From: an uncultured Planctomycetaceae bacterium | Lineage (GTDB): Bacteria; Planctomycetota; Planctomycetia; Pirellulales; Thermoguttaceae | Reading direction: 5' to 3' | NCBI GenBank assembly: GCA_964436865.1 | Contig: CAYTFK010000002.1 | Location: forward strand, 20,890 to 84,889 | Length of the DNA: 64,000 nucleotides | Shown here: piece after piece, positions 3,370 through 64,000 of the stretch | How the letters are laid out: each line of letters starts with the position of its first letter | How positions within the stretch are numbered: position 1 is the first letter of the stretch | The notes under the pieces: model-generated | What the model saw: the letters and a program-made list of their open reading frames with translations, nothing else | What the model was told of the DNA's origin: nothing | Database searches by the model: none | Translations under genes and position numbers: made by a program

Positions 3370-3380
3370 CCCGTACATTT

Positions 3381-19989: not shown

Positions 19990-20292
19990 ATGGCGAAGGA
20001 CCTGAACTTGAAGCCGTTGGATGATCGGATTGTGGTCGAGCCTGTTGAGGCCGAAGAGATGACGGCCGGCGGCATCGTGCTTCCCGACACGGCGAAAGAG
20101 AAGCCGCAGCGCGGCACCGTGCTGGCAGTGGGTCCGGGCAAGCTGCTCGACAATGGGGAACGCGGAGCGCTGTCGGTGGCGATCGGCGACGAGGTGATCT
20201 ACGGCAAGTATGCCGGCACGGACATCGAGATCGACGGGCGCGACGTGAAGATCCTCCGTGAAAGCGACGTCTTGGCCAAGGTGGTCAAGTAA
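19990..20292 (+). CDS. groES: co-chaperonin GroES
   Basis: 100 aa. [10 protein letters not shown]...[14 protein letters not shown] mobile-loop region. Confidence 0.95.
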
Positions 20293-20348
20293 TACCGGCG
20301 GCTTCCTACTGAACCGGAACCATCAGGACATACAAGGATACTTGAACC

Positions 20349-21968: not shown

Positions 21969-22026
21969 GTGGCCTGCGTGCGCCGGTCGGATCGGCGTGG
22001 TGATCGTGGCCAACAAGCATTCCACC

Positions 22027-22060
22027 GGGCCACCCTGCACGCCAGGGTGGCCCGCTTTTT
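22027..22060 (+). terminator. rho-independent terminator after groEL copy 2
   Basis: 11-bp stem GGGCCACCCTG / CAGGGTGGCCC with loop CACGC, followed by GCTTTTT. Confidence 0.75.
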
Positions 22061-22144
22061 GCACCCTCGCCAGGAGGGGCCGAGTACGAGCCGCCCGGGC
22101 ATGGTACAATTGCTGGTTTCGAGCAACGAGCTTCTTCACTAACC

Positions 22145-23284: not shown

Positions 23285-23311
23285 CGTGTATCGTGCGGTG
23301 GAGGAGGAGAA

Positions 23312-23932
23312 GTGGCAGCCAACGAAGAACAAGCCCGAGTTGATCCCGCGCCCCAGGCTGCGGAAGGGCCGCAGTCAGGCGGCGAGCCGACGGCGGAGCA
23401 GGCGGCCGCCGATCAGGTGTTCCAAATCGCCGAGGAGGGCGAATTGGATCAGCTTCGGGCCGATCTCGAGGAGATGAAGGAGCGTGCCCTGCGCAGCCAG
23501 GCGGAGTTGGAGAACTACCGCAAGCGAGTGGCCCGGCAGATTGACGAAGAGCGGCGTTACGCCGAGTTGCCGCTGGTGCACGACCTGCTTCCCGTGGTGG
23601 ACAACATCCAGCGGGCGATCGAGGCGGCCGAGAAGGCCGGGGAGGCGCCGGCACTACTCCAGGGTTTCCAGATGGTGGCCAGGCAGCTCGAGGATGTGCT
23701 CCAGAAGCACCACTGCAAACGGATTGAGGCGCTCCATCGGGCGTTCGATCCCCATTTCCACGCCGCGATCGCCCAGCAGCCTTCGGCCGAGCACGAGCCG
23801 ATGACCATCGTGCTCGTCACGCAGGAAGGATACACACTCCACGATCGGGTCGTGCGACCGAGCCAGGTGATTGTGGCGGCGCCGGCTGCGGAGAGTTCCG
23901 AAGCGGGGCCGGGGGCCGATCACGCGGCGTAG
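23312..23932 (+). CDS. grpE: nucleotide exchange factor GrpE
   Basis: GTG start after GGAGGAG. Family pattern (RSQAELENYRKR, LLPVVDNIQRA, GYTLHDRVVRPSQV). Confidence 0.9.
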   Translation: MAANEEQARVDPAPQAAEGPQSGGEPTAEQAAADQVFQIAEEGELDQLRADLEEMKERALRSQAELENYRKRVARQIDEERRYAELPLVHDLLPVVDNIQRAIEAAEKAGEAPALLQGFQMVARQLEDVLQKHHCKRIEALHRAFDPHFHAAIAQQPSAEHEPMTIVLVTQEGYTLHDRVVRPSQVIVAAPAAESSEAGPGADHAA

Positions 23933-51500: not shown

Positions 51501-51923
51501 TATCCGCCTCTCAGCGATTCCGAACAGACAATGCTCCAGCAGCTTCTGGCGGCGCTATTGCAACAAGCGGCTCCTCCCGGCTTGTCTGCGGCTACCGAAA
51601 ACACCGACTCGCCGACGCCGCAATCTGCCGACGGCGCTCAGGCGATGGCGGCGGACGCGAACCGGCCGTCCAGTGCAATGCCGCCAGCCGCAGCGAACCT
51701 TCCGGCGACGTCGGCATCCGCCATGGCGAACGGAGCGCGACAGGCGTCCGCCGCTGGACAAGGAAGCGGCGACGCGGACGCCAGCGGGCCGCCGTTTGCC
51801 GATGAGCCGTGGTTCCTCGAGCTGCCACCGGAGGTTCGCAATGCGATGCGCGCCAACGCCCAGCAGCGCCCGCCGCGCGGATACGAAGAAAAGCTCCAAC
51901 GCTACTTCAGAAACATCGATTGA
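48507..51923 (+). CDS. 1138-aa exported Ala/Gln/Glu-rich coiled-coil protein
   Basis: ATGA overlap with the upstream gene. Signal peptide MLLLLAALICAPALG. Nearly continuous low-complexity helical sequence. Conserved-looking C-terminal end (PPRGYEEKLQRYFRNID). Confidence 0.7.
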   Translation: MNPRGRAMLLLLAALICAPALGQVDRRGTAKQELQAQVRRMARDLVGGVLDVQILQLEENGLTGLDLYRDIRDMRAHLDELIEAEMPEVIAILDRIEPSPAAERDKLLQAARQQSREILVRLLAERQNLLRRLRIAEMAAQVLRLIEMQSAVLEATRSLPERAASEREATVVAAIEDSRDIKVVYLGLKQTLHDVSTWGGPVAGEAAEGLRLLERGRVDAEMNAAAQALGNADFAASAASQEAVIRGLRSLLETLRRAQGLVEGDQNAMRNMLRSISQRQEEIRQATSQPDLAPTEIERLVEEQSQVRSSLAEAAEELGASEARQSLQRAEAAAAEAAARLFEDQPQDALSQQDQVLAELARVEQQLNEAGVDTPPAESVASREWNERAGDLAAAKEDVERIRKQQEGASLAVHDKPVEAAKQEEQIAAGLAEVPSNRQLPAQVDAALAAAERAARDAAGRMDQPQQQRAEAARRAERAIQQAASEIDAALADAQRQEIASRIGELAQAAAALDHAAAQQRGIAGEAHVAAEGTGLKASQAQELGEQQSEVRENVEATAKGLIETAPTAAAKAQAAQPMMQATQDQLAAASRQPGEPSKPAARQSAEHASQAASLLHEAAREVRRVMQEQARQLAALSGEQLDVANDARRAVEQAVDQRTESIGKRLEQLSAASRKVREASAEQQRAGGRPDAARAMELAAAIEEALRQQEQADRAASEMEASESRSPLDAIGAQQAVADAAQNLAEQAGGERPETTALRHARQAADDAVRGLLDSRPSEAQAARSLARRSLETAIEAARAAVAEATKKPPGEVDPSAQQRVSKSAAEAGELAAQDAPAAAGTLAEAQQHSDDARRTASNGDVDTARQSQAETAGLLERAAREIAEAEQRLAEQAALQLANQAVQSRQLADRSLPVDPAAHAALQSAERQAQTAAGRVPQAPQQALPAEKATAEAFDRAVGELAAREQELARDKSLAEQLALLLEQLLDPTTAQSTATYPPLSDSEQTMLQQLLAALLQQAAPPGLSAATENTDSPTPQSADGAQAMAADANRPSSAMPPAAANLPATSASAMANGARQASAAGQGSGDADASGPPFADEPWFLELPPEVRNAMRANAQQRPPRGYEEKLQRYFRNID

Positions 51924-51948
51924 ACCGAACTCAGCGAGAGAACAGACC

Positions 51949-52989
51949 ATGAGCAACAACGATGTCCCGTCCGATGACGTGGCCGCCGTCGAGGAGTGCC
52001 GCCAGGCCTATGAGCGGATACGGAGCGAACTGGCGAAGGTGATCGTCGGCCAGGAGAACGTGATCGAGCAGGTGCTCATCGCGATTCTGGCCCGTGGTCA
52101 CGCGCTTCTGGAGGGTGTGCCGGGACTGGCCAAGACGTTGCTCGTCAGTTCGCTGGCCGAGGCGACTCACCTGAGCTTCAAACGGATCCAGTTCACCCCC
52201 GACCTCATGCCCAGCGACGTGACAGGAACCGAGATCATTCAGGAAGACATTGAGACGGGGCACCGGAATTACAAGTTCCTGCCCGGCCCGATATTCGCCA
52301 ACATGATTCTGGCCGATGAAATCAATCGCACGCCCCCCAAGACGCAGGCCGCGATGCTGGAAGCGATGCAGGAACGGCAGGTGACTTCCGGAGGAACCGT
52401 GCATCGGCTGCCCGAGCCTTTCTTCGTTCTCGCCACGCAGAACCCGCTCGAGCAGGAAGGAACCTACCCTTTGCCCGAGGCGCAGCTCGACCGCTTCCTC
52501 CTCTACATCAAGGTGGAGTATCCCACCGGTGCGGAGGAATGGGAGATCGCCCGACGTGTGACAACCGGGCAACAAGGCAAGATCGCTCCGCTGATGACGG
52601 GCAAGGAGATCCTCGGCTTTCAGGATCTGGTGACGCGCGTGCCCGTCAGCGACCAGGTGCTCGGCTACGCCTGGGCGCTGGTGCGGGCGTCGCGACCCGG
52701 AACGTCGGAAGCCCCCGAGTTCGTCGACCACTGGGTATCGTGGGGAGCCGGGCCGCGCGGGGTGCTCACCCTGGTGACGTGCGCCAAGGCTCGCGCGATC
52801 CTCCACGGCCGCTATCACGCCGCCCTGGGCGATGTGCAGGCGATCGCCAAGCCGGCGCTGCGGCATCGCATCGCCGGCAATTACGCGGCCCAAGCCAACA
52901 ACCTCACCGGCGATCGTCTCGTGGAGATGCTGATGGAGGCGCTGCCAGCCGATCGGCGCTACGATAAGCCCGCAGCCGTCGCCGGTTAA
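51949..52989 (+). CDS. moxR: MoxR-family AAA+ ATPase
   Basis: Walker A region LLEGVPGLAKT. Walker B ILADEINR. ATQNP sensor motif. The ATG at 51949 gives the typical length of about 346 aa. Confidence 0.92.
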   Translation: MSNNDVPSDDVAAVEECRQAYERIRSELAKVIVGQENVIEQVLIAILARGHALLEGVPGLAKTLLVSSLAEATHLSFKRIQFTPDLMPSDVTGTEIIQEDIETGHRNYKFLPGPIFANMILADEINRTPPKTQAAMLEAMQERQVTSGGTVHRLPEPFFVLATQNPLEQEGTYPLPEAQLDRFLLYIKVEYPTGAEEWEIARRVTTGQQGKIAPLMTGKEILGFQDLVTRVPVSDQVLGYAWALVRASRPGTSEAPEFVDHWVSWGAGPRGVLTLVTCAKARAILHGRYHAALGDVQAIAKPALRHRIAGNYAAQANNLTGDRLVEMLMEALPADRRYDKPAAVAG

Positions 52990-53003
52990 TAGAAAGCGAT
53001 CCC

Positions 53004-53912
53004 GTGGCCAAGAGCATCCTTTCCCGCTATCTCGACCCGGCCGTCCTGAGCCGCATCGCCGCGCGGCGAATCGAGCCCCGCGGCCTGGTGCTGGGCAACC
53101 TGGCCGGAGCACACCGGTCACCGATGGCGGGATTCGCCGTCGAATTTGCCGGGCATCGGCCCTATGTCTGGGGCGATGATCCGAAACACATCGACTGGCG
53201 AATCTATTTCAACCGCCAGCGGTATATGATCAAGCAGTATGAGATGGAGACGAACTTTGTCTGCCACCTCGTGCTCGACACCAGCGCGTCGATGCGCTAC
53301 GGCGAAGGCGACGGGCAGAAGTTGCTGTATGCCGCGCGGATGATCACTACGCTGGCGTATGCCGTATTGCGGCAGAGCGATAAGGTCTCGCTCACCACAT
53401 TTGACGAGCGATTGCGAGGCTTTTTGCCGCCGAGCAACTCGATGGCCCAGGTGGTCCGCATGACCGGGCACCTTGACCAGACGCGGCCGGTTCACAAGAC
53501 CAACATGGCCGACTGCCTGATGGAACTCGCCGGACGGATGCGGCGGCGCGAGATCGTCATGATTTTCAGCGACTTCTTCACCGATCTGGACGTCCTGGAA
53601 AAAGCCATACAGCGGTTCCGCTATCACCGTCACGAGGTGGTGCTCTTCCAGGTCTTGCACCACGATGAGTGGGACTTCGACTTCGAGGGCTCAGTGAAAT
53701 TCGTCGGCCTCGAAATACCCGAGGAACTGCTCACCAGACCCGAAGAACTCCGACGGTCCTACTTGGCAGCCCTGGACGAGTTCAATGGTCGCTTCGACGC
53801 GATCTGCCAGCGGAATCGCGTGGAGCGGGTACCAGTCGACACCAGCCGCGATTTGGCCGGGACATTCATCGATTACCTCAACCAGCGCAGCCTGCTGAAC
53901 CGGGGCCGATAG
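53004..53912 (+). CDS. DUF58 domain protein (MoxR partner)
   Basis: GTG start 14 nt after moxR. Signature (G.H.S...G.GVEFAGHRPY..GDD.K.IDW) and DTSASM. Confidence 0.9.
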   Translation: MAKSILSRYLDPAVLSRIAARRIEPRGLVLGNLAGAHRSPMAGFAVEFAGHRPYVWGDDPKHIDWRIYFNRQRYMIKQYEMETNFVCHLVLDTSASMRYGEGDGQKLLYAARMITTLAYAVLRQSDKVSLTTFDERLRGFLPPSNSMAQVVRMTGHLDQTRPVHKTNMADCLMELAGRMRRREIVMIFSDFFTDLDVLEKAIQRFRYHRHEVVLFQVLHHDEWDFDFEGSVKFVGLEIPEELLTRPEELRRSYLAALDEFNGRFDAICQRNRVERVPVDTSRDLAGTFIDYLNQRSLLNRGR

Positions 53913-54190: not shown

Positions 54191-55456
54191 ATGCCACCAG
54201 AAGAAGTCGTCATCACGGGTGTGGGCGTAGTCAGCCCCATCGGCATCGGCAAGGATTGCTACTGGCAACAGATGTCCGCTGGGCGAAGCGGCGTGGGACC
54301 GGTCGGTTCCATTGACTCGGGTACTATTCCAGTGGCGGCGGCCGGCGAAGTGCGCGACTTCGATGCGAAGAAGTTCGTGACGCCGCGAAAGAACCTGAAG
54401 GTGATGGTCCGCGACTCGGAGTTGGGCGTGGCCGCCTCGGTGCTGGCCTGCCAGGATGCCAGGTTGAATCCGGGCGACGTCGACCCCGAGCGCTTCGGCG
54501 TCGTGCTGGGCGCCGACCGCATCAGCGGCCCGTTGAGCGATAGCGAGGAGCCGCATCGGCGGTGCATTGTCGACGGGCGGTTCGACTTCAGCCGCTGGGC
54601 CACCGACGGGATGTCGGTGGCGTTTCCTTTGGCTTTTCTCAAGGTGCTGCCCAACATGATCGCCTCGCACGTGTCGATCGCTCACGACGCGCGAGGCCCC
54701 AATAACACGATCCATCAGGGAGATGTGTCGGGGCTCTTGGCCATGGCCGAGGCGACGCGACTGATCCAGCGTGGGATGGCCGAAGCGGTGCTTGCCGGCG
54801 GCGCGAGTTCGATGCTGAAACCTTACGACTGGGTATGCCACTGCGTGGTTGGCCGAGTCTCGATGCGGCAGGCCGAACCGGAATCGATATGCCGGCCCTT
54901 TGATGCCGACCGTGACGGAGAAGTCAAAGGAGAAGGGGCGGCACTGCTTGTGCTCGAGAGCCGGCGCCATGCGGAAGCTCGCGGCGCCACAATCCTCGCG
55001 CGGATTCTCGGCTGCGCTTCGTCGTACGAGATCCAGAACGGCTCACCACGCAAGGGGGAAGGACTGCGGCGCGCCATCGGCGGGGCGATGCGCGAGGCCG
55101 CCGTCGAACCTCGCGGCGTGGGGCACGTCAACGCCCACGGTGCCAGCACGATCTTCGACGATGAGATCGAAGCCCGCGTCATCCGGGCTGTGCTGGGCGA
55201 CGTGCCGGTTACCGCACCGAAGAGCTACTTCGGCAATTTGGGGGCGGCCGCCGGAGCAGTGGAAATGGTCGCCAGCGTAATGTCGCTCCACACGGGACTG
55301 CTGCCGGTGACGCTCAACTACCGGCGTCCCGATCCGGCGTGCGCCGTCCGCGTGGTCCACGGCGAGCCGTGGAAATCGCCGGCCCCGGCGGCAGTGGTCG
55401 TCAACATGACTCGGGCCGGTCAGGCTGTGGCGATTGTGCTGTCGGCCGCGGAGTGA
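54191..55456 (+). CDS. beta-ketoacyl-ACP synthase (FabF/KAS II)-like protein lacking the catalytic Cys
   Basis: KAS fold (VVITGVGVVSPIG, VNAHGAST, GAAGAVE). The ACxSG position reads GDVSG (Asp178, 54722-54724). The second catalytic His reads Asn349 (GNLGAAAG, 55235-55237). Confidence 0.85.
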   Translation: MPPEEVVITGVGVVSPIGIGKDCYWQQMSAGRSGVGPVGSIDSGTIPVAAAGEVRDFDAKKFVTPRKNLKVMVRDSELGVAASVLACQDARLNPGDVDPERFGVVLGADRISGPLSDSEEPHRRCIVDGRFDFSRWATDGMSVAFPLAFLKVLPNMIASHVSIAHDARGPNNTIHQGDVSGLLAMAEATRLIQRGMAEAVLAGGASSMLKPYDWVCHCVVGRVSMRQAEPESICRPFDADRDGEVKGEGAALLVLESRRHAEARGATILARILGCASSYEIQNGSPRKGEGLRRAIGGAMREAAVEPRGVGHVNAHGASTIFDDEIEARVIRAVLGDVPVTAPKSYFGNLGAAAGAVEMVASVMSLHTGLLPVTLNYRRPDPACAVRVVHGEPWKSPAPAAVVVNMTRAGQAVAIVLSAAE

Positions 55457-56043
55457 CTCGGCGCGGCCGCGGGCTGGGCACTGGCGGTGGCCTTGACGGC
55501 GAATTCATAACGCCCCCACGCCATAAGCAGCAGCAGGATCGCGACGAGTATCGCTGCCAGCGAGATCCCCAGCAATACCGTGTCGAGACTTGCCTGCTGA
55601 AGTTTGCCCACAAGACCCTCGCCCGGCTCCCGCGGCTTCTTCACTTTTTTCGGCTTGGCGGCCGGTTCCTCTGCCACATCGGACACGCCCTCAGCGGCAA
55701 GAACCTCGCCCACCCCGGCTTGAGCAGGCTCGCCCGGCAAAGGCGTGGGCTCGACGACCGCCGCCTCACCCGTAGCGTCCACTAACGGGTCGCCGGTCGG
55801 CAGGGAGAAATCATCTTCCGGGAGGTCAAATTCGTTGCGTTCTGGGGTCTTGCCATCAGACACGGCGTGCTCTCCGGGCTCTGAACCCGCGGATAACCAG
55901 GCGAAAGTACTTCCCCCTCCATTATAATTCGAGGCTTTCGGACTGCCACGAAAAACACGAAGCGGGACCGCCGAGTCACCCCCCTCTACGGATGGGTCGC
56001 AATAATCCGTGCCGCGCGACTGCGCCGCGGAGCGTCGCACCAA
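55420..56043 (-). CDS. hypothetical acidic/Pro-rich protein with C-terminal TM anchor
   Basis: Only plausible frame in this interval and GC3-rich. One TM (VLLGISLAAILVAILLLLMAW). The start is uncertain: TTG at 56043, or a GTG preceded by GGAG further in (VSDGK...). Confidence 0.4.
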   Translation of the reverse strand: MVRRSAAQSRGTDYCDPSVEGGDSAVPLRVFRGSPKASNYNGGGSTFAWLSAGSEPGEHAVSDGKTPERNEFDLPEDDFSLPTGDPLVDATGEAAVVEPTPLPGEPAQAGVGEVLAAEGVSDVAEEPAAKPKKVKKPREPGEGLVGKLQQASLDTVLLGISLAAILVAILLLLMAWGRYEFAVKATASAQPAAAPSHSAADSTIATA

Positions 56044-56065
56044 GACCTGTCCGGTGGCGGGATGG

Positions 56066-56251
56066 CTAGCGGCTGGAGAGGTTCCAGTTGTTTAGCACGT
56101 CTTCAGAGCCGGGCGTCAGGTTGCGGACCTTCTCGACGATCACCGACTTCTCCGAAACAGTCGCCTTGGCCAGCCGCTTCTCAAGTCGAGCCAGTTTCTG
56201 GCGGCGGTGACGCCGGCGCTTGAGTTCCTTCTTACGCTCGCTGATCGACAC
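56066..56251 (-). CDS. small basic protein, unknown function
   Basis: GTG at 56251 with AAGGAG about 8 nt upstream, giving a 61-aa Lys/Arg-rich helical peptide (SERKKELKRRRHRRQKLARLEKRL...). The track ORF extends to 56311. Confidence 0.5.
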   Translation of the reverse strand: MSISERKKELKRRRHRRQKLARLEKRLAKATVSEKSVIVEKVRNLTPGSEDVLNNWNLSSR

Positions 56252-56323
56252 GGCAAGGGCTCCTTGACGGGTGCTGGTCTCTGGATGGGAAACCAGTATT
56301 TTTATCACCAACCGGCAAGGAGG

Positions 56324-57460
56324 TCAATCGTCACTCTCGGCGGGGTCGCGCAGCGTCACCGTGAATGTGCTCCCTGCGTCCGGCCGGCTATCGACCGTCA
56401 CGGAGCCCCGGTAGAGCGCGGCGAGTTTCTGGACGATGGAAAGGCCCAGGCCGCTGCCAAGAATTTCGCGCGTCTTGTCGTTCCGGATGCGAACGAATTC
56501 ATGAAACAGTTGCGATCGTTCGTCGTCAGTCATGCCGATACCCGTATCGGTCACCGTGAGGCGCACCGTGTCGCCTTGACGTTCGATCCCTATCTCGACC
56601 GACCCGCCGTCGCGGTTGTACTTCACCGCGTTTGAGACCAGATTGTTGAGAATCATCTGCAACTCGCCGCGATCGGCCGCTAGTGTAACCGCCGGTTCGT
56701 CGAGCAGTCGGATGGTGATCCCGCGTCCGGCGGCCTGCGCGGCCACGGTCTCGATCGCCGATTGGGCCGCCGCCTTGAGGCACACCGGTTCGATCTGCCG
56801 GTTCTTGCGGCCCGACTCGATGTGTGTCAGATCCAGCAAGTCGTCGATGAGCTTCCGCATGCCGTCTAGCCGGGCATGGCAACGGCCGAGGGCTTGGGAG
56901 TAGGCAGCCAGTTCGTTGCCCATCGCACGATCGTCAAGCATCGCGAGATAGCCGTCGATGGCGTTCAGTGGGGCCTTGAGTTCATGGCCGAGCACGCGGA
57001 TGAACTCGAAGCGGACTTGTCGCTTCTCGTCGGCCAGGCGCCGAGTCTGCTTGGCGAGTATCAGGCGGGCCGCCGCCTTGCGGACCGTGCTGCGAAGTTC
57101 GTCCGGCGTGAAAGGCTTGGCGAGAAAATCGTAGGCCCCGCGCTTGGTGGCGGTCACGGCAGTCTCGATCGAGGCGTACGCCGTGATCATGATCACGAGC
57201 ATGTCGAGCTTCATGCCTGCCAGGCGGTCAAGCACGTCGAGCCCGCTGATGCCCGGCATCTTGTGATCCAGCAGCAGGATGTCGGGCGGTTCGGTCTGGA
57301 TCTTCTCCAGCGCCGCTTCGCCCGACTCCGCCTGATCGACGGCGAAGCCGATCGGGCCGGCAATGTCGGGCATAGTGAAACTGAACTCTCGGAGCGTCCG
57401 CTCGACGCCCCGCCGCATGCCGAATTCGTCGTCGGTAACCAGAACGCGGAGCGTTTCCAT
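56324..57460 (-). CDS. hybrid receiver-histidine kinase (REC-HisKA-HATPase)
   Basis: REC domain (VLVTDDE...LLLDHKMPG...KP). H-box LGHELKAPLN. N box LVSNAVKYN. G boxes DTGIGM and GSGLGLS. Confidence 0.88.
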   Translation of the reverse strand: METLRVLVTDDEFGMRRGVERTLREFSFTMPDIAGPIGFAVDQAESGEAALEKIQTEPPDILLLDHKMPGISGLDVLDRLAGMKLDMLVIMITAYASIETAVTATKRGAYDFLAKPFTPDELRSTVRKAAARLILAKQTRRLADEKRQVRFEFIRVLGHELKAPLNAIDGYLAMLDDRAMGNELAAYSQALGRCHARLDGMRKLIDDLLDLTHIESGRKNRQIEPVCLKAAAQSAIETVAAQAAGRGITIRLLDEPAVTLAADRGELQMILNNLVSNAVKYNRDGGSVEIGIERQGDTVRLTVTDTGIGMTDDERSQLFHEFVRIRNDKTREILGSGLGLSIVQKLAALYRGSVTVDSRPDAGSTFTVTLRDPAESDD

Positions 57461-57466
57461 GGCGGT

Positions 57467-57979
57467 TCAATTCGTCAACAGCCGCTCGATCTCGGTGCTG
57501 AGCTGCTCGAAGCGGATCGGCTTGGTGAGAAAGGCGTCGGCCTTGATCCAGGACCGTTCCTCCGCCGTCGCCGTATCGAACTCCAGGCCCGTCTCGCGGT
57601 TCACCGAGCTCACGAGGATGATGGGGATCGACGGATCTTTCTTCTTGATATGATAGCAGAGCGTGAAGCCGCCGTCAGGATTCTCCATCATCAGGTCGAC
57701 CACTGCCAGGTCGGGCCGGCGGTGCGAGAGGATCTCCTCGGCCCGGCTCTCCCCTTCGGCGATGATCACCTCGAAGCCCGCGGCCTCGAGCCGCGTCTTC
57801 TGCTGGAAAAGGAAATCGGCGTCGTCGTCGACCAGCAGGACGATCTTGTTGGCTTGTTCGATGCTCATGGCTTCGTGCTTTCTCGGAGACGGGTTGATAC
57901 GTTCTTGCAGCATTTCCAGCCGGTAGGCGATCACGGGCGCTGCCTGGATGGACGGGATAATTGGGGTGCGGGGGATCAT
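57467..57979 (-). CDS. single-domain response regulator (CheY-like receiver, no output domain)
   Basis: REC motifs (LLVDDD, DLAVVDLMM, LVSS, LTKP). The ATG at 57979 forms an ATGA overlap with the upstream kinase stop. An alternative ATG at 57868 (MSIEQANK) gives a minimal 133-aa receiver. Confidence 0.85.
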   Translation of the reverse strand: MIPRTPIIPSIQAAPVIAYRLEMLQERINPSPRKHEAMSIEQANKIVLLVDDDADFLFQQKTRLEAAGFEVIIAEGESRAEEILSHRRPDLAVVDLMMENPDGGFTLCYHIKKKDPSIPIILVSSVNRETGLEFDTATAEERSWIKADAFLTKPIRFEQLSTEIERLLTN

Positions 57980-59955
57980 TCGCGGCGGGGCAAGGTTACG
58001 GTGAACGCGGTCCAGGTCGGCCCCACGGCCGGATCGGGCTGCGAATCCACGCGGATATCGCCGCAGTGCATCTTGATGATCCCGTAGCTCACCGCCAGCC
58101 CCAGGCCCGTTCCCTTGCCCGATTCCTTGGTCGTGAAGAACGGCTCAAAGATCTTGGCGAGATTCTGCTTCGGGATGCCGACGCCCGTGTCGCTCACCTG
58201 CACCGATACGCGCTGGGCGTCGCCGCTGGTGCGGATCGTCAGGCGGCCGCCGTGGACCATGGCGGCCATCGCATTGGTGACCAGGTTGGTGAGCACCTGG
58301 ATGATCTGGTCGCCGTCCACCTCGACGATCGGGTCGTCAAGGTCGTGGCGGACGTCAATTGAAATGTCGTCCGGCACCCTGGTCGCGTTCAGGGTCCGAT
58401 CGATGAGGTTTCGCAGATCGACCGGTTGCCGGACGACTTTGTGCTGGCGGGCGAAATGGAGCAGCCCCGCGACGATTTTCTTGCAGCGATCAGCCTGCTC
58501 GGTAATCATCGTCAGGTCGTCGCGAATCCGCGGATCCTGGCACTCATCGAGCAGGAGGTGTGCATACATCAGGACCACGCCAAGCGGGTTGTTCACTTCA
58601 TGGGCAATCCCTGCCGCCAACTGCCCCATGCTGGCCATCTTCTCCGACTGCATGAGGGCTTCCTGGGTGCGGGCGAGCTGCCGGTTCGAGGCCTCGATGT
58701 CGGCCAGCGCGCACTGGAGCTGATCGATCATGAATGGCAGGCACATCTCGTTTTCTGCCAGCCCCTTATAGATCGCCACGGCATGCTCGCGGCAGGAATC
58801 GTATCCGCAGGCTCCGCAATTCAACTCGTCATCGGGGGAGTACTTCCCCATCCCGGCCATGATCTCGGTCAGCTCCTCCGGCGCCGGAAGCGGGATCCGC
58901 TGGTCGTTGGGCTGGAACGTCCGCCGCAGATCGAGATCGCTGAAGCGGTCCATGTCGCCCTGCCACTGCTCGATGTCGAGGGCCGCCATGCGGCGGTTGA
59001 CATGCACGCGGACATGGCGGCGGCGGTTGAACAGCGGCAGATCGTTGTTGATCCCGGCCCCCATGATGCAGCCTTCGCAGCACAGGGCTTCGAGCAGCTT
59101 CGCCCCCAGATCGCCGTCGGAGAACTCCTTGATCGCCTCGATCATGTGGGCGCGGCCCTGCGTCGAGACGACTTCGCCGTTCATCAAGTCTTCTTCAATC
59201 TCGGCGGCCTGGAGGATGCCGCGGCTGATGGGGAACAAGCCGCCAGCGGCGCCGTGGGGCGGGTCGAAATGGCTCGGATCTATCGCGCCGGGCCGGATGC
59301 CTTGCTCCTGGCACATGCGGCGAAATTCAGCAAAGGTCAGCACGCCGTCGATCTCGGCCGCTACTTCCTCCGCCTCCGCTTCACACTTCTTCGCGATGCA
59401 CGGCCCGATGAAGACCACGTTGACCTCGCGGCCGTGCAACGCGCGGATGACGCGTGCCGTTGCAATCATCGGCGATACGACCGGGGCAAGCGACCCAACC
59501 ATCTGCGGATAGTACTTCTGGACGTAACTGGCGACCGCCGGACAGGTGGTGGCGATATGGCGATGGCCGTTCGTGTTCCCCACCAGCCGGCGATACTGCC
59601 GGGCAACCAGGTCGGCGCCAAACGACACCTCGTGGACAAGGTGGAAGCCCAACGCGCGGGCCATGCCCGCCACTTCCTCCGCCGAGGCATCGATGAATTC
59701 GGCAGGGAAACTGGGGGCGAAGCACGCCGCCACCCGCTCTCCCGACTGGATGAGCTCCCTTACTTGCGGAACGGTGTCACGGATCTGCTTGGCTCGCTGC
59801 GAGCACACGCGGACGCAGTTTCCGCACGCGATGCATCGGTCCCCAATCACCTCGGCCTGCCCGGCGACTATGCGAATCGCCTTGGCCGGACACTCGCGGA
59901 CGCACGTGTAGCACATGCGGCAGCGTTCGCCGATAGTGGTGATGTAGGCGTTCAT
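57976..59955 (-). CDS. [FeFe]-hydrogenase-like sensory domain fused to a histidine kinase
   Basis: Two N-terminal 4Fe-4S motifs ([24 protein letters not shown]). H-cluster-type motifs in variant form ([19 protein letters not shown]). Cys-rich CGACGYDSC module. Then H-box AHEVNNP and HATPase boxes ([21 protein letters not shown]). Confidence 0.88.
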
Positions 59956-60022
59956 GGCAGGCAGGGCTCTCTCGACTCCTCACGCTCCCAACGAGACACT
60001 CGCCTGGAGCACGGCAGGCGCC

Positions 60023-61807
60023 TCAGACCAGGGCCTCACGTCTCACGTAATGGGTATGCAGCAGGTGGTGGCTCTTCTCGCCGAGCGGCACGCCCAGATA
60101 CTCATTGTACAAGCGCTGGACGGCCTCATTGGCGTGCGAGGTTCGGACGCTCTCGCGATCGTCGATCTCATACAGGGCCTGCATCCGCGACCTCACCGCA
60201 CTGGAATCGGTGCCGATCGGCTGGCCGCCGCCGTTGATGCAGCCGCCGGGGCAGGTCATCACCTCGATGAAGTGCAGATCCTTGCGTTTGCCCGCCCGCA
60301 ATTCGTCCAGCAGTCGCCGGGCGTTGCCCAGACCGCTCACCACGGCGACCCCCAGTTCGATGCCGTTGACCGCCACGCGGGCTTCTTTCACGCCCTCCAG
60401 GCCACGCACCGCTTGCACATGAAGATCGGGCAGTTCCTGGCCGGTGACCAGGTAATGCGCCGTGCGGATCGCCGCCTCCATCACGCCGCCCGATGCCCCA
60501 AACAGCTTGCCCGCCGTGGTCCGTTCGCCAAATGGCGTGTCGGCCGTGTCGGGGGCGAGTTCCCGCAGGTCGATGCTTCGCATGCGAATCAGCTTGGCGA
60601 GTTCCCGAGTGGTGAGCACCGCGTCGACGTCGGCCACCCCGTTGTGGGTCAGCTCGCTGCGGCCGGCTTCAAACTTCTTCGCCGTGCAGGGCATGATGCT
60701 GACGGTGAAGATCTTGTCGCGATCAATCCCCTCGCGCTCGGCGAAGTAGCTCTTGATCACCGCGCCCATCATCTGCTGAGGGCTCTTGCAGGTGGAGAGG
60801 TTCTCGATGAAGTTGGGATAGAACGTCTCGACGGTCTTGATCCAGCCCGGCGAGCAACTGGTCATCATCGGCAGCTTCAGGCCGTTGGTCAGCCGGTGGA
60901 CAAACTCGGAGGCCTCCTCCATGATCGTCAGATCGGCGGTGAAGCCGGTGTCGAACACGCGCTTGAAACCGAGCCGCCGCAGGGCGGCCGTCATCGCTCC
61001 GACGACGTCCATGCCGGCCGGCAACCCGAATTCCTCGCCCAGTGTCACCGACACCGCGGGGGCGTGCTGCACGACGACGAACTTCTCGGGGTTTTCCAGC
61101 GCCGCAAGCACATCCTTCAAATGGCTCTGCTCGCTCAGCGCCCCGGTCGGGCAGGCCATGATGCACTGCCCGCAGTTGATGCAACTCGATATGTTCAGGC
61201 CTTCGTCGAACGCGGTGCCGACCTTGGTCTTTGACCCTCGGCCGATGAAGTCGATGGCGGCGATCCCCTGGACCTCCTCGCAGACGCGGACGCACTTGCC
61301 GCAGAGGATGCATTTCGCCGGGTCGCGGCTGATCGAGGGGCTGGAATTGTCGAGGAAATGCCGGCTCTTCTCCCCCGCGAAACGGCGGCTGCGGACGCCC
61401 AGCTCCTCGGCCATCCCCTGCAGGTCGCAGCGCCCGTTGCGGACGCAGTACAGGCAATCGTCGGGGTGGTTGGCCAGGAGCAATTCGATGATCGTCTTGC
61501 GGGCGTCGACGGCGCGCTTGGAATGCGTCTGAACCTTCATTCCCTCGGCGACCGGGTAGGCACAGCTCGGCACCAGCCCGCGCTGCCCCTCGACCTCGAC
61601 CACGCACATCCGACAAGCGCCGGTGGCCGGCAGGCCGTCGATGTTGCACAGTGTGGGCACCTTGATTCCCACGCGACGCAGCGCGGTCAGGAGCATCTCC
61701 CCTTTTTCGGCCTGGACGGACCGCCCGTTGACTTCAATGGTGACCATGGGCTTGCTTACCTCTTCTTGGTATTCGCTGGGACAACCGAACCCGGCCCCGA
61801 CCACCAT
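60023..61807 (-). CDS. hydA: [FeFe]-hydrogenase catalytic subunit HydA-like (M3 architecture plus small-subunit-like tail)
   Basis: N-terminal 2Fe-2S fold, HxxxCxxCxxxxxC, two 4Fe-4S motifs and H-domain motifs TSCSPGW / MPCTAKKFE / EVMTCPGGCINGGGQP. The ATG at 61807 has GGGAGG 5 nt upstream. An alternative ATG at 61747 gives MVTIEVNG. Confidence 0.9.
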   Translation of the reverse strand: MVVGAGFGCPSEYQEEVSKPMVTIEVNGRSVQAEKGEMLLTALRRVGIKVPTLCNIDGLPATGACRMCVVEVEGQRGLVPSCAYPVAEGMKVQTHSKRAVDARKTIIELLLANHPDDCLYCVRNGRCDLQGMAEELGVRSRRFAGEKSRHFLDNSSPSISRDPAKCILCGKCVRVCEEVQGIAAIDFIGRGSKTKVGTAFDEGLNISSCINCGQCIMACPTGALSEQSHLKDVLAALENPEKFVVVQHAPAVSVTLGEEFGLPAGMDVVGAMTAALRRLGFKRVFDTGFTADLTIMEEASEFVHRLTNGLKLPMMTSCSPGWIKTVETFYPNFIENLSTCKSPQQMMGAVIKSYFAEREGIDRDKIFTVSIMPCTAKKFEAGRSELTHNGVADVDAVLTTRELAKLIRMRSIDLRELAPDTADTPFGERTTAGKLFGASGGVMEAAIRTAHYLVTGQELPDLHVQAVRGLEGVKEARVAVNGIELGVAVVSGLGNARRLLDELRAGKRKDLHFIEVMTCPGGCINGGGQPIGTDSSAVRSRMQALYEIDDRESVRTSHANEAVQRLYNEYLGVPLGEKSHHLLHTHYVRREALV

Positions 61808-61874: not shown

Positions 61875-63851
61875 CTAAGCTTTCATGACCGCGCCCAGCC
61901 GGCAGGCATCCAGACAGGATCCGCAGCCGATGCAACGGTCTTCGATGATGTAATGGGGATTCTTCGGCGAGCCGATGATCGCATCGGCGGGGCACTTCTT
62001 GGCGCACAGCGTGCAGCCCTTGCATTTCTCCGCATTGATCGAGTACGTCACCAGTTCGGCGCAGGCCCCGGCCGGACAGCGCCGGTCGTACACGTGGGCC
62101 TCGTACTCGTGGCGGAACCACCTGAGCGTGCTCAGCACCGGGTTGGGGGCCGTCTGCCCCAGGCCGCAGAGGCTCGTGTCGCGGATCGTCTCCGCCAGCC
62201 GCTGCAGGTGGAGCACGCTCTGGAACCGCTCCAGGGCCTCCAGCTCCTTCTCGTGCCGGCGCCCCCGGGTGATCCGCTTGAGGATCTCCAGCATCCGCCG
62301 CGTTCCCTCGCGGCAGGGAATGCATTTGCCGCAGCTCTCGCGCTGGATGAAGTCCATGAAGAACTTGGCCACGTCGACCATGCAGGTCTCTTCATCCATC
62401 ACCACCAGGCCGCCGGAGCCCATCATCGCACCGACGGTCTTCAGCGACTCGTAGTCGACGTCGATGTCGAGGTGCTGCTCCGGAATGCAGCCGCCCGACG
62501 GCCCGCCGATCTGCACCGATTTGTACTTCTTGCCGTAGGGGATGCCGCCGCCGATGTCGAACACGATCTGGCGGACCGTTGTTCCCATCGCCACCTCGAC
62601 CAGGCCCGTCCGGGCGACCTTCCCCGACAGTGCGAAGACCTTCGTCCCCTTGCTGGTCTTGGTCCCCAGAGCGCTGAACCACTCGTGGCCGCGGTCGATG
62701 AGCATCGGCACGTTGGCCAGCGTCTCGACGTTGTTGATAATCGTCGGCTTCGCAAATAGGCCGCTCACCGCGGGGAACGGCGGACGCGGACGCGGCATGC
62801 CGCGTTTTCCCTCGATACTGTTGATCAGCGCCGTCTCCTCCCCGCAGACAAACGCCCCGGCTCCCTGCTTGATCACGATGTGCAGCGAGAAACCGGTGCC
62901 CAGCATGCTGTCGCCCAGCAGTCCGTACGACTCGGCCTGGCCGATGGCGATCTTGAGCCGCTCGATGGCCAGCGGATACTCCGCCCGGATGTAAACGTAG
63001 GCCTTCGAGGCGCCGATCGCATAGGCGGCGATCGCCATGCCTTCCAGCAGCCGGTGCGGGTCCCCTTCGATCACCGCCCGATCCATGAACGCGCCGGGGT
63101 CTCCCTCGTCGGCGTTGCAGACGAGATACTTCTGGCCGGCCTGCGAGGCACGGGCGAACTTCCACTTCTTGCCGGTCGAAAAGCCGCCGCCCCCCCGGCC
63201 GCGAAGCCCGCTCCGTTCAACCGTGTCGCAAACCTCGTCGGGCGTCTGCTTGCGGAGCACCTTGGCCAATGCCGCGTAGCCGCCGCGGGCGATGTACTCA
63301 TCGATCGAATTCGGATCGATCAGGCCGCAGTTGGCCAGCACCCACCGGGTTTGCGGAGCGAAGAACGGATGCTCGTCGAGGTACGGCACCTCGCTCCAGG
63401 GGTTGAGGCCGCTTGATCGATGCTGGCCGAGTACGCTGTCGCGCGGCACGTCGCCGCGAAATACGCCGTCCAGCACGGCGTCGACCTCTTTCCTCGAAAT
63501 CCTCTCGAAGGCCAGTCGCGTCCGGCCGGGCATCTGCACTTCGACGATCGGTTCGGCCGAACAGAGGCCGATGCAGCCGACCTCGACGACATCGGCCTCG
63601 ATGCCGTGCCGCTGAAGGTACTCGCGCACCGCCGCGATCGTCCCCTTCGCCCCCGCGCCCAGGCCGCAGGTGCCCGCGCCGATGAAGATGGCCGGACGAA
63701 CCAACTGCTCGCGCCGCAACTCGCCAAAGCGCCGCTCGCGCTCCGCGCGGTCCTGGCCGTTGCCGTCCGGCCCATCGGCCAAAACCCAGTCGAGAATCTG
63801 CCGGCCGGCCTCGGGAGCGGCCAGGGTGCTGTCTGCGTCAGGCTGCTTCAT
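61875..63851 (-). CDS. hydB: NuoF-like flavoprotein subunit (HydB/HndC type) of an NAD(P)-linked hydrogenase
   Basis: N-terminal thioredoxin-like 2Fe-2S (GTCGLGAGA...CIGLCSAEP). FMN/NADH motifs (GRGGGGFSTGKKW, GAGAFVCGEETAL). N3 cluster CGKCIPCREG. Two C-terminal 4Fe-4S motifs. ATG at 63851 with GGAGG upstream. Confidence 0.9.
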   Translation of the reverse strand: MKQPDADSTLAAPEAGRQILDWVLADGPDGNGQDRAERERRFGELRREQLVRPAIFIGAGTCGLGAGAKGTIAAVREYLQRHGIEADVVEVGCIGLCSAEPIVEVQMPGRTRLAFERISRKEVDAVLDGVFRGDVPRDSVLGQHRSSGLNPWSEVPYLDEHPFFAPQTRWVLANCGLIDPNSIDEYIARGGYAALAKVLRKQTPDEVCDTVERSGLRGRGGGGFSTGKKWKFARASQAGQKYLVCNADEGDPGAFMDRAVIEGDPHRLLEGMAIAAYAIGASKAYVYIRAEYPLAIERLKIAIGQAESYGLLGDSMLGTGFSLHIVIKQGAGAFVCGEETALINSIEGKRGMPRPRPPFPAVSGLFAKPTIINNVETLANVPMLIDRGHEWFSALGTKTSKGTKVFALSGKVARTGLVEVAMGTTVRQIVFDIGGGIPYGKKYKSVQIGGPSGGCIPEQHLDIDVDYESLKTVGAMMGSGGLVVMDEETCMVDVAKFFMDFIQRESCGKCIPCREGTRRMLEILKRITRGRRHEKELEALERFQSVLHLQRLAETIRDTSLCGLGQTAPNPVLSTLRWFRHEYEAHVYDRRCPAGACAELVTYSINAEKCKGCTLCAKKCPADAIIGSPKNPHYIIEDRCIGCGSCLDACRLGAVMKA

Positions 63852-64000
63852 GGCCGTTTCCCTCCGCCGCCTTCCTGTAAGAATCAAGAATCTTGCTTAC
63901 CTTCTGTGTGGTGACCCCGGCGTGAAACTCGCCATTGATGGCGATTACCGGGGCCAAACCGCACGCGCCGATGCAGGCGACCACTTCCAGACTGAACATG
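63838..64000 (-). CDS. hydC: NuoE-like [2Fe-2S] subunit (HydC/HndA type), 3' end only
   Basis: Minus-strand frame reads ...FSLEVVACIGACGLAPVIAINGEFH...GNGHEAA*, matching the NuoE C-terminal CxxxC...AP motif. It runs off the window edge and overlaps the hydB start by 14 nt. Confidence 0.78.
   Translation of the reverse strand, partial: MFSLEVVACIGACGLAPVIAINGEFHAGVTTQKVSKILDSYRKAAEGNGHEAA

What the first reader, a model, noticed from the sequence alone, without database searches (positions are those of the whole stretch)
57976..59955. Hydrogenase-like H-cluster domain fused directly to a histidine kinase (candidate one-protein H2 sensor)
- Domain order: two ferredoxin-type 4Fe-4S motifs, then an [FeFe]-hydrogenase H-domain, then a Cys-rich CGACGYDSC module, then a DHp H-box (AHEVNNP) and HATPase boxes. 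No intervening PAS domain is visible.
- H-cluster motifs are divergent. L1 is ATTCP instead of TSCCP, so the proton-relay Cys position reads Thr while the cluster-ligand Cys is kept. L2 is [10 protein letters not shown]3 is CCEGC with Leu in place of the conserved Met.
- Loss of the proton relay is the hallmark of putative sensory (group C) [FeFe]-hydrogenases.
- As far as I know the characterised sensory examples carry a PAS domain, and kinase-fused ones are known only from sequence classification.
- It sits immediately downstream of a trimeric hydrogenase, in what looks like a planctomycete.
Basis: partly seen in the sequence, partly recalled or inferred. Interest (0 to 1): 0.72.

Follow-up and report, generated by a model that had tools for sequence, protein, structure and literature searches.

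The report
Hydrogenase-like sensor fused to histidine kinase
This gene encodes a hydrogenase-like iron-sulfur sensor domain joined by a rigid helix to a histidine kinase. It is a real but already catalogued, widespread and never tested type of candidate hydrogen sensor, sitting just after the hydrogenase genes it probably regulates.

Summary
ORF 57976-59955 (-) encodes 659 aa in this order: 2x[4Fe-4S], [FeFe]-hydrogenase H-domain, Cx2Cx4Cx16C cluster, about 35-aa helix, HisKA, HATPase_c. There is no PAS domain.

All four H-cluster Cys ligands are invariant in relatives, as are K358, E361 and the APS motif (CpI numbering). The proton-relay Cys is Thr here and never Cys in 74 relatives.

One correction to L3. 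The conserved ligands are C293 and C296, spaced Cx2C, one residue shorter than the canonical CxxGC. No enzyme with this spacing has been characterised, as far as I know.

The protein is not rare. Full-length relatives occur in at least 575 species genomes across many phyla. HydDB lists a "histidine kinase-linked" group C1, and a 2024 Hydrogenedentota paper describes kinase-domain-bearing group C hydrogenases beside bifurcating hydrogenases.

The module hydC-hydB-hydA-[this gene]-REC-[REC-HK] is conserved. In the closest planctomycete relatives a sigma-54 promoter precedes hydC, usually with a divergent NtrC-type regulator.

The distance from the last cluster Cys to the phospho-His varies in steps of seven, which indicates a coiled-coil transmitter.

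Verdict: a new member of a known, uncharacterised kind. It is a good experimental handle, not a surprise.

The parts
57976..59955 (-). hydS-HK: 659-aa hydrogenase-like sensor histidine kinase (the finding)
   Evidence: ORF. Pfam domains. More than 120 full-length clusters at 64-71% identity and one at 99%.
59794..59931 (-). N-terminal 2x[4Fe-4S] ferredoxin-like domain (aa 9-54; Cys 12, 15, 18, 22 and 41, 44, 47, 51)
   Evidence: Fer4_10/Fer4_9/Fer4 hits. The Cys are invariant or nearly so in alignment A1.
59056..59736 (-). H-domain (aa 74-300). Contains APS80-82, L1 ATTC138P, SPM161-163, L2 GPC186IAK189KCE192, and L3 L291-C-C293-E-G-C296.
   Evidence: PF02906 E 3.4e-44. Alignment to TmHydA and to the window HydA. 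Invariant columns. Foldseek hits to TmHydA, TkHydA and CpI.
58735..58824 (-). C-terminal [4Fe-4S] module, Cx2Cx4Cx16C (C380, C383, C388, C405)
   Evidence: PF04060. The motif is as described for M2e/M2f HydS. All four Cys are invariant.
58630..58740 (-). Signalling helix / coiled-coil linker (aa 406-442) from the last cluster ligand C405 to the DHp
   Evidence: AF2 helix 406-431. The C405-to-H452 distance is 47 and varies in relatives as 33/40/47/54/68. Hydrophobic period is 3.4-3.5.
58444..58629 (-). HisKA/DHp domain (aa 443-504) with phospho-acceptor H452 (AHEVNNP)
   Evidence: PF00512 E 1.1e-13. H452 is invariant. Best PDB match is ZraS, 9jfj.
57982..58317 (-). HATPase_c catalytic domain (aa 547-658) with N, G1 (DxGxG), F and G2 boxes
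   Evidence: PF02518 E 1.5e-25. Invariant N557, N561, D589, G591, G593, F606, F607 and G615-L620.
57467..57979 (-). Single-domain response regulator (REC). Its start overlaps the hydS-HK stop by 4 nt (ATGA).
   Evidence: PF00072. A homologue is adjacent in 58/70 relatives' loci.
56324..57460 (-). REC-HisKA-HATPase hybrid (relay kinase), 6 nt after the REC gene
   Evidence: Pfam. A homologue lies less than 1 kb downstream in 65/67 loci.
60023..61807 (-). hydA, catalytic subunit of a group A trimeric [FeFe]-hydrogenase, 67 nt upstream of hydS-HK
   Evidence: NCBIfam FeFe_hydrog_A6 836 bits, above the 765 cut-off. PDB 8a6t/7q4v E<=1e-176. A homologue lies upstream in 55/67 loci.
61875..63887 (-). 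hydB (NuoF-like flavoprotein subunit)
   Evidence: Complex1_51K, NADH_4Fe-4S and Fer4. A homologue lies upstream in 48/58 loci.
63853..64000 (-). 3' end of hydC (NuoE-like). The gene runs off the window end.
   Evidence: tblastn gives 82% identity to HydC residues 110-159 of locus L004.

Best explanation
**What it is.** The gene encodes a cytoplasmic, probably dimeric, one-polypeptide redox and H2 sensor kinase of the putative sensory [FeFe]-hydrogenase lineage (HydS-like, HydDB group C type).

**Shown by sequence.**
- The N-terminal half has every element of a HydS-type sensory hydrogenase: two relay [4Fe-4S] clusters, an H-domain with all four H-cluster Cys ligands and the CN-binding Lys, no proton-relay Cys, and the C-terminal Cx2Cx4Cx16C cluster.
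- The last Cys ligand of that cluster sits at the start of an amphipathic helix. The helix runs in fixed heptad register into the DHp helix that carries the phospho-acceptor His.
- The C-terminal half is a complete HisKA-type kinase.

**Inferred mechanism.**
1. The H-domain is matured with a [2Fe] subcluster by the HydEFG machinery that the neighbouring HydA also needs.
2. H2 is bound and slowly oxidised. The lack of a proton relay makes turnover slow, which stabilises reduced states as in TmHydS and TamHydS.
3. The resulting redox or conformational change in the H-domain and C-terminal cluster region is passed through the coiled coil as a rotation or piston.
4. That movement shifts the kinase/phosphatase balance.
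5. Phosphoryl groups go to the co-encoded single-domain REC protein and/or to the REC domain of the co-encoded REC-HK relay kinase.
6. In the closest planctomycete relatives, the endpoint is probably a divergently encoded NtrC-type activator at a sigma-54 promoter in front of hydCBA-hydS-HK. Hydrogenase expression would then track H2.

Functionally this is the [FeFe] counterpart of the [NiFe] HoxBC-HoxJ-HoxA circuit, with sensor and kinase in one chain.
For: - **Architecture and motifs:**
- **Residues that matter only if a [2Fe] subsite is present are invariant.** K189 (=K358), A80-P81-S82 (=A230-S232) and S161-P162 (=S323-P324), together with C138, C186, C293 and C296.
- **The C299 position is never Cys.** It is T/S/N/A/P in 74 relatives, as in characterised HydS enzymes that do bind an H-cluster (PMC8163306).
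- **The same sensor module is fused directly to other signalling outputs.** These include sigma-54 AAA+ activators, GGDEF, MCP and PAS. That is the behaviour of an input domain, not of a metabolic enzyme.
- **Gene linkage across phyla:** hydA upstream in 55/67 loci, REC-HK downstream in 65/67, REC adjacent in 58/70.
- **Operon packing in the window:** 67-nt, -4-nt and 6-nt gene junctions.
- **Linker length is quantised in sevens.** Values are 33, 40, 47, 54 and 68. Hydrophobic period is 3.4-3.5 and the AF2 model has a helix at 406-431.
- **The kinase core is closest to AtoS, ZraS and NtrB-type kinases,** which partner NtrC-type regulators.
- **Sigma-54 promoter.** TGGCAC-N5-TTGC (9-11 of 11 positions) lies upstream of hydC in the 11 closest loci tested, and in no locus from another phylum or on the opposite strand.
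- **A divergent REC-Sigma54_activat-HTH_8 gene** is present in most of those close loci.
Against: - No member of this kinase-fused clade has been expressed or assayed. H-cluster binding is inferred from relatives at about 35-40% identity.
- The two distal ligands are spaced C-x-G-C, not C-x-x-G-C. I know of no characterised [FeFe]-hydrogenase with this spacing.
[quoted passage not shown] Its authors say this appears to refute reduction of that cluster as the signalling step (PMC13104023). The trigger is therefore probably conformational, and it is not known.
- The terminal output regulator and the promoter are not in this window. The sigma-54/NtrC link was seen only in relatives at 64-70% identity and is absent in other phyla.
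- No hydE, hydF or hydG lies in the window.
- The AF2 model is of modest quality (pLDDT 67, below 50 around L3).
Confidence: 0.6

Rival explanations
1. It is a redox or Fe-S status sensor kinase without a [2Fe] subcluster. The H-domain holds only a [4Fe-4S] cluster, as in Nar1/NARFL-type hydrogenase-like proteins. It would report the ferredoxin/NADH redox poise, O2 or NO rather than H2, and would still regulate the hydrogenase operon.
For: - The L3 ligand spacing is non-canonical, Cx2C.
- C299, M353 and M497 are all replaced.
- The literature doubts H-cluster motifs in group C1.
- Nine accessory Fe-S ligating motifs make the protein intrinsically redox-sensitive.
Against: - Residues needed only to hold the diiron site's CN ligands (K358, S232, P231 and P324 equivalents) are invariant.
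- TmHydS and TamHydS carry comparable substitutions and do bind an H-cluster.
- Linkage is specifically to hydABC in 82% of loci.
Confidence: 0.2
2. It is a regulatory subunit docked on HydABC (the 'BfuT' idea). Its N-terminal clusters would exchange electrons with the bifurcating enzyme, so the kinase reads the redox state or flux of HydABC rather than free H2. The single-domain REC might feed back on the enzyme by protein-protein contact.
For: - The gene lies immediately downstream of hydA in most loci.
- PMC11406978 treats the group C protein as a T subunit of BfuABC gene clusters.
- Relay clusters are retained at the N-terminus.
- Single-domain REC proteins commonly act through binding partners (general knowledge of two-component systems).
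Against: - 12 of 67 loci with enough flank lack an adjacent hydA, but nearly all keep REC-HK. The invariant partner is therefore the phosphorelay, not the enzyme.
- Solved HydABC complexes (7p5h, 8a6t, 7q4v) contain no such subunit.
- An intact H-cluster pocket would not be needed for a pure electron tap.
Confidence: 0.12
3. It is a working catalytic hydrogenase whose kinase half is vestigial or unrelated to H2.
For: The H-domain fold and its ligands are present.
Against: - The proton-relay Cys is absent in every relative.
- All kinase catalytic boxes and the phospho-His are invariant under purifying selection.
- Dedicated REC partners are conserved.
- Characterised HydS-type enzymes turn over slowly.
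Confidence: 0.03

Closest known systems
Putative sensory [FeFe]-hydrogenase HydS of Thermotoga maritima (group C, M2f)
   Same: - N-terminal 2x[4Fe-4S], H-domain with four Cys ligands, and C-terminal Cx2Cx4Cx16C cluster.
- No proton-relay Cys, and M353->Gly.
- Encoded with a group A hydrogenase.
   Different: - TmHydS ends in a PAS domain and has no kinase. Here the helix after the cluster runs straight into a DHp/CA kinase.
- PAS-only relatives keep the C-x-G-G-C spacing. This clade has C-x-G-C.
- Identity to PAS-only representatives is about 33-40%.
HydDB [FeFe] group C1 'histidine kinase-linked (putative)', and the HATPase/His-kinase-bearing group C hydrogenases of Hydrogenedentota (PMC11406978)
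   Same: - An H-domain protein associated or fused with a histidine-kinase ATPase domain.
- Frequently next to group A3 hydABC.
- Divergent P1-P3 motifs.
- Hydrogenedentota homologues of the window protein (55-62% identity, full length) were recovered, including one from a genome used in that paper.
   Different: - The class is defined only by sequence clustering. No member has been characterised.
- I could not run HydDB, so the C1 versus C3 label is unassigned.
- The window copy comes from a planctomycete-like genome.
TamHydS of Thermoanaerobacter mathranii (group D, M2e)
   Same: - No PAS domain and M497->Leu.
- Same cluster complement.
- Gene next to a bifurcating hydrogenase and a histidine-kinase-like ATPase gene.
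   Different: - The kinase-like protein is a separate gene there.
- The M2e hallmark M353->Ser/Thr is not present here (Gly).
[NiFe] regulatory hydrogenase circuit HoxBC-HoxJ-HoxA (Cupriavidus necator) and HupUV-HupT-HupR (HydDB [NiFe] group 2b)
   Same: - The logic is the same: a slow, sensor-type hydrogenase controls a histidine kinase, which controls an NtrC-family regulator of hydrogenase genes.
- A sigma-54 promoter and an NtrC-type regulator are present in the closest relatives (established knowledge of the Hox system).
   Different: - The metal centre and fold are unrelated.
- Sensor and kinase are separate proteins there, joined through a PAS domain in HoxJ. Here they are one polypeptide joined by a coiled coil, with an extra REC and REC-HK relay.
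Coiled-coil-coupled sensor kinases (for example FixL and the engineered YF1) and hybrid REC-HK relays such as Leptospira LvrA/LvrB
   Same: - A heptad-phased helical linker joins the sensor to the DHp.
- A kinase feeds a REC-HisKA-HATPase relay protein.
   Different: - The input is an Fe-S/H-cluster domain instead of PAS or LOV.
- Similarity to LvrB and FixL is limited to the generic kinase core and lies below family cut-offs.

Membership tests
[FeFe]-hydrogenase, putative sensory group C (HydS/M2f type) | H-domain (Fe_hyd_lg_C) with the four Cys that ligate the H-cluster | tested here: met
   PF02906 E 3.4e-44. C138, C186, C293 and C296 are invariant. The spacing of the last two is Cx2C instead of Cx3C.
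[FeFe]-hydrogenase, putative sensory group C (HydS/M2f type) | Proton-relay Cys (C299) not conserved | tested here: met
   Thr137 aligns to C299. The position is T/S/N/A/P and never Cys in 74 relatives.
[FeFe]-hydrogenase, putative sensory group C (HydS/M2f type) | N-terminal two [4Fe-4S] motifs and C-terminal Cx2Cx4Cx16C motif | tested here: met
   Fer4 families 9-54. C380-x2-C383-x4-C388-x16-C405. The definition is from PMC8163306.
[FeFe]-hydrogenase, putative sensory group C (HydS/M2f type) | PAS domain C-terminal of the extra cluster (as group C is described in PMC8163306, PMC11216029 and PMC13104023) | tested here: not met
   No PAS family at E<=0.01. Only 35 aa lie between the FeS module and HisKA, and the AF2 model is helical there. 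PAS is detected in relatives with the same search.
[FeFe]-hydrogenase, putative sensory group C (HydS/M2f type) | Binds an H-cluster and reacts with H2 | not testable with these tools
   This needs maturation followed by FTIR, EPR and activity assays.
HydDB [FeFe] group C1 (histidine kinase-linked, putative) | Association of the H-domain protein with a histidine kinase | tested here: met
   It is fused in one ORF to HisKA + HATPase_c.
HydDB [FeFe] group C1 (histidine kinase-linked, putative) | Assignment by HydDB k-NN or sequence-similarity clustering to C1 rather than C2 or C3 | not testable with these tools
   No HydDB classifier or labelled reference set was available. The supplements of PMC11406978 gave no gene-level labels.
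HisKA-family two-component sensor histidine kinase | DHp H-box His plus N, G1, F and G2 ATP-binding boxes | tested here: met
   H452, N557, N561, D589xGxG593, F606-F607 and G615-L620 are invariant. PF00512 and PF02518 score above cut-off. ZraS 9jfj E 3e-33.
HisKA-family two-component sensor histidine kinase | Cognate receiver partner(s) | tested here: met
   REC and REC-HK genes lie directly downstream and are conserved in 58/70 and 65/67 loci. Phosphotransfer itself was not tested.
[FeFe]-hydrogenase group D (M2e, TamHydS type) | M353 replaced by a hydroxyl residue (Ser/Thr) | tested here: not met
   Gly184 aligns to M353. The GPC motif is invariant. The criterion is from PMC8163306.
[NiFe] regulatory hydrogenase / HoxJ system (HydDB [NiFe] 2b) | [NiFe] large and small subunits plus a separate PAS-containing kinase | tested here: not met
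   No NiFe hydrogenase family was hit. The sensor is an [FeFe] H-domain. This system is a functional analogue only.

The most novel reading that the evidence does not exclude
The kinase-fused clade, together with its sisters fused to sigma-54 activators and GGDEF, could be a distinct and portable H2-input module. Its marks are the shortened C-x-G-C distal ligand pair and a Ser/Thr at the proton-relay position. In this module the last Cys ligand of the C-terminal cluster anchors a heptad-phased coiled coil that drives the output domain directly. If so, this protein would give the first direct biochemical readout, H2-dependent autophosphorylation, of how a sensory [FeFe]-hydrogenase signals. It would do so without having to find an unknown interaction partner. 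[quoted passage not shown]
Probability: 0.45. Interest if true: 0.7.

Novelty: new member of a known kind. Interest (0 to 1): 0.4.

Why it matters
How putative sensory [FeFe]-hydrogenases pass a signal on is an open question.

- The two characterised enzymes, TmHydS and TamHydS, have no assayable output.
[quoted passage not shown] It calls for identification of interaction partners (PMC13104023).
- A protein in which the same sensor module is wired through about 35 helical residues into a canonical kinase, with its receivers encoded next door, turns that question into a standard autophosphorylation and phosphotransfer experiment.
- The family is ecologically widespread in anaerobic Planctomycetota, Hydrogenedentota, Myxococcota, Acidobacteriota and others. 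It is nearly always tied to bifurcating hydrogenases, so it probably sets H2 production or consumption in many uncultured fermenters.

This window adds one more example, not a new concept.

Tried and rejected
- **Hidden PAS domain (aa 300-442).** Rejected. No Pfam PAS hit, although the same search finds PAS in relatives. The AF2 secondary structure is helical.
- **Missing H-cluster ligands.** Rejected.
- **Pfam census of all 150 representatives in one call.** I replaced it with local HMM/phmmer typing plus two 10-protein Pfam samples. About 48 PAS-only assignments are therefore extrapolated from a sample.
- **AF2 model.** Only moderate quality (pLDDT 67, below 50 for aa 1-58 and 238-300). I did not use it for cluster geometry. 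Foldseek only re-found the kinase and hydrogenase halves.
- **Maturases, rpoN or an NtrC-type regulator in the window.** None found.
- **Sigma-54 motif in the window.** Four matches, at chance level, and none near the hyd genes. The relevant promoter would lie beyond base 64000.
- **Sigma-70 promoter and terminator scan of 55300-60200.** Nothing informative.
- **Cultured hosts or accession links.** The listing of cluster members returned only MAG or unnamed entries.
- **C1/C3 label from the supplements of PMC11406978.** No gene-level data were held.
- **NJ tree of sensor modules.** It is star-like. It supports only a coarse split between PAS-only and effector-fused proteins.
Full report
**1. 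Observation**

The window has an ATG-initiated ORF at 57976..59955 on the minus strand, 659 aa. Pfam places a two-[4Fe-4S] ferredoxin-like domain at residues 9-54 and the [FeFe]-hydrogenase H-domain (Fe_hyd_lg_C) at 74-300 (E 3.4e-44). The 'putative Fe-S cluster' family PF04060 lies at 378-407, HisKA at 443-504 and HATPase_c at 547-658. No PAS family appears at E<=0.01.

NCBIfam agrees. The N-half matches a [FeFe]-hydrogenase model and the C-half matches AtoS, ZraS and NtrB-like kinases. None of these matches reaches an equivalog cut-off.

PDB sequence and fold searches split the protein the same way. ZraS, HK853 and CckA match the C-half. T. maritima and T. kivui HydA and CpI match the N-half.

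These matches are far beyond chance, and the architecture recurs in more than 120 full-length clusters at 64-71% identity.

**2. Motifs**

The phmmer alignment to T. maritima HydA (7p5h) and a MAFFT alignment with the window's own group A HydA give the following:

- **L1.** ATTCP lies on TSCCP. Thr137 replaces the proton-relay C299 and Cys138 keeps the ligand C300.
- **L2.** GPCIAKKCE lies on MPCTAKKFE. M353 becomes Gly, and C355, K358 and E361 are kept.
- **L3.** EALCCEGC lies on EVMTCPGGC, with Leu291 on M497.

In a 33-sequence alignment the following are invariant:

- C138, C186, K189, E192, C293 and C296.
- A80-P81-S82 (CpI A230-S232) and S161-P162 (S323-P324).
- The four Cys of C380-x2-C383-x4-C388-x16-C405, the exact HydS-type C-terminal motif.
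- H452 and the N, G1, F and G2 kinase boxes.

One refinement is needed. The first Cys of the 'CC' pair (C292) is A/S/F/L in relatives. The conserved pair is C293/C296, spaced C-x-G-C. This is one residue shorter than the canonical C-x-x-G-C that PAS-only relatives keep.

Across 74 scored relatives the C299 position is Thr (38), Ser (27), Asn (4), Ala (4) or Pro (1), and never Cys.

**3. No PAS, but a phased helix**

Only about 35 residues separate the last cluster ligand region from HisKA, and AF2 predicts a helix at 406-431.

The distance from the last cluster Cys to the phospho-His was measured in three sets:

| Set | In register (7n+5) | Out of register |
|---|---|---|
| 121 close family members | 47 (all) | none |
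| 80 species loci | 47 (73), 40 (5) | 49 (1) |
| More distant kinase-fused representatives | 33 (2), 40 (4), 47 (15), 54 (4), 68 (1) | 38, 48, 49, and 71 (a likely false H-box match) |

Mean hydrophobicity along the linker peaks at a period of 3.4-3.5 residues, with a/d-like positions at +1, +5, +8, +12, +15, +22 and +29. This is the signature of a continuous coiled-coil signalling helix that begins at the cluster ligand C405.

**4. Surroundings**

On the same strand, reading downstream, the genes are:

- a hydC fragment that runs off the window (63853-63999);
- hydB (61875-63887);
- hydA (60023-61807; group A, NCBIfam A6 model above cut-off);
- a 67-nt gap;
- the sensor kinase;
- a single-domain REC gene that overlaps its stop by 4 nt (57467-57979);
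- a 6-nt gap;
- a REC-HisKA-HATPase hybrid (56324-57460).

The rest of the window is housekeeping: hopanoid genes, chaperones, a Bat/MoxR operon and others. It contains no hydEFG, rpoN or NtrC-type gene.

**5. Relatives elsewhere**

The best 80 are full-length at 51-69% identity. Their record titles name Planctomycetota, Hydrogenedentota, Myxococcota, Acidobacteriota, Lentisphaerae, Fermentibacteria, Eisenbacteria, Nitrospiraceae, Brocadiia and others. A few are labelled Alphaproteobacteria, Hyphomicrobiales, Bacteroidales, Clostridia or Thermoleophilia. All are MAGs.

In those loci:

- hydA lies less than 1 kb upstream on the same strand in 55/67;
- hydB lies upstream in 48/58;
- the REC-HK hybrid lies less than 1 kb downstream in 65/67;
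- a REC gene is adjacent in 58/70. In 8 of these it sits between hydA and the sensor.

Annotated contigs of four planctomycete relatives show the same six-gene order.

In the 11 closest loci tested, a near-consensus sigma-54 element TGGCAC-N5-TTGC lies 60-220 nt upstream of hydC. It is absent in other phyla and on the opposite strand. Most of those close loci also carry a divergent REC-Sigma54_activat-HTH_8 regulator.

In this window that region lies beyond base 64000.

**6. The sensor module as a portable input**

An exhaustive HMMER search with residues 1-420 found 4777 cluster representatives at E<=1e-3 and 911 at E<=1e-30.

Of the best 150, the output domains were typed as follows:

- about 38 are direct kinase fusions;
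- 12 are fused directly to sigma-54 AAA+ activators, making one-component regulators;
- 5 are PAS-sigma-54 fusions;
- 4 are fused directly to GGDEF;
- others carry MCP, GAF-HK, PAS-HK or HK-REC;
- about 48 have PAS-only-sized tails, as in classic HydS. Pfam-checked samples were mostly PAS, with one MCP and some without a hit.

The effector-fused forms share the C-x-G-C spacing and cluster apart from the PAS-only forms in a crude NJ tree.

**7. Comparison with what is known**

- HydDB already lists [FeFe] group C1 as 'histidine kinase-linked (putative)'.
- PMC11406978 reports group C1 proteins with a HATPase_c domain, and group C3 'BfuT' proteins with a His-kinase domain, next to bifurcating hydrogenase genes in Hydrogenedentota. 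It notes that the C1 motifs are hard to recognise.
- One of my recovered loci (L056) comes from a genome used in that paper.
- TmHydS (PAS) and TamHydS (no PAS; a kinase-like gene nearby) are the only characterised relatives.
- For TamHydS the C-terminal cluster is not reduced by H2, and the authors call partner identification critical.

The window protein meets every sequence criterion of the sensory lineage except the PAS domain. It lacks the group D hallmark (M353->Ser/Thr). I could not test its HydDB subgroup.

**8. Mechanism and rivals**

The best-supported reading (confidence 0.6) is an H-cluster-bearing, slow-turnover H2 sensor. Its conformational or redox change is carried by the coiled coil to the kinase. 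The kinase feeds REC and the REC-HK relay, and in the planctomycete clade probably an NtrC-type activator of a sigma-54 hyd promoter.

- **Shown:** the architecture, the motif conservation, the gene linkage, the linker phasing, and the promoter and regulator in relatives.
- **Inferred:** cofactor insertion, the H2 response, the direction of regulation and the phosphotransfer route.

The rivals are:

- a redox or Fe-S sensor with no diiron site (0.2), favoured by the odd L3 spacing;
- a regulatory subunit that reads HydABC's redox state (0.12);
- a catalytic enzyme with a vestigial kinase (0.03).

**9. Verdict**

The novelty is low: this is a new member of a catalogued, widespread and uncharacterised class.

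Its value is as a tractable system for an open question. The added details from this work are the heptad-phased linker, the Cx2C distal pair, the conserved REC/REC-HK module and the sigma-54 link.

Interest is 0.4.

Noticed in passing
window 60023-61807 (-), HydA residues ~311-319: The catalytic HydA has P1 motif TSCSPGW, with Ser where the textbook TSCCP has the second Cys. The solved HydA1 chain of PDB entry 7q4v carries the same variant (ITSCSPGWIK), whereas the 8a6t chain (T. kivui HydA1) has TSCCPSW.
   Followed up: partly
proteins P0161, P0165, P0153, P0189, P0142, P0175 (relatives): The same 2x[4Fe-4S] + H-domain + Cx2Cx4Cx16C module is fused directly to other outputs in other organisms. 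These are sigma-54 AAA+/HTH_8 activators (one-component candidate H2-responsive transcription factors), GGDEF and MCP domains. I did not find the sigma-54 and GGDEF fusions described in the papers I read.
   Followed up: partly
loci L004/L005 1-5157, L086 1-5359, L087 1-5260: Upstream of hydC and divergent from it, close planctomycete relatives encode an NtrC-type regulator, a REC-GcvH fusion protein and Hdr-like genes (CCG, Fer4, FAD). L087 also has a second, oppositely oriented hydABC cluster about 5 kb downstream of the module.
   Followed up: partly
window 18074-18088 (+): An exact TGGCAC-N5-TTGC sigma-54-type element lies about 200 nt before the Cpn60 domain of the first groEL-like gene. 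The window-wide match count is at chance level (4 found, 4.8 expected with <=1 mismatch).
   Followed up: no
window 18073-23932 (+): A chaperone cluster with two GroEL paralogues flanking GroES (18073-19920, 19990-20292, 20349-21968), followed by DnaJ and GrpE.
   Followed up: no
window 41898-53912 (+): A Bat/MoxR-type 'aerotolerance' operon (BatA/VWA, DUF7408, MoxR AAA+, DUF58). It includes a 1138-aa Ala/Gln/Glu-rich protein (48507-51923). That protein has no Pfam hit on record for its near-identical homologue in L001, and GC is locally higher there (0.685).
   Followed up: no
window 2193-5663 (-): Hopanoid genes: squalene-hopene cyclase (3381-5663) and a radical-SAM/DUF3463 protein (2193-3215).
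   Followed up: no
window 56066-56311 (-): A small DUF6800 ORF lies directly after the REC-HK gene. It is present in the 99%-identical contigs (L001-L003) but was not detected (tblastn, E<=1e-8) in any of the other loci.
   Followed up: partly
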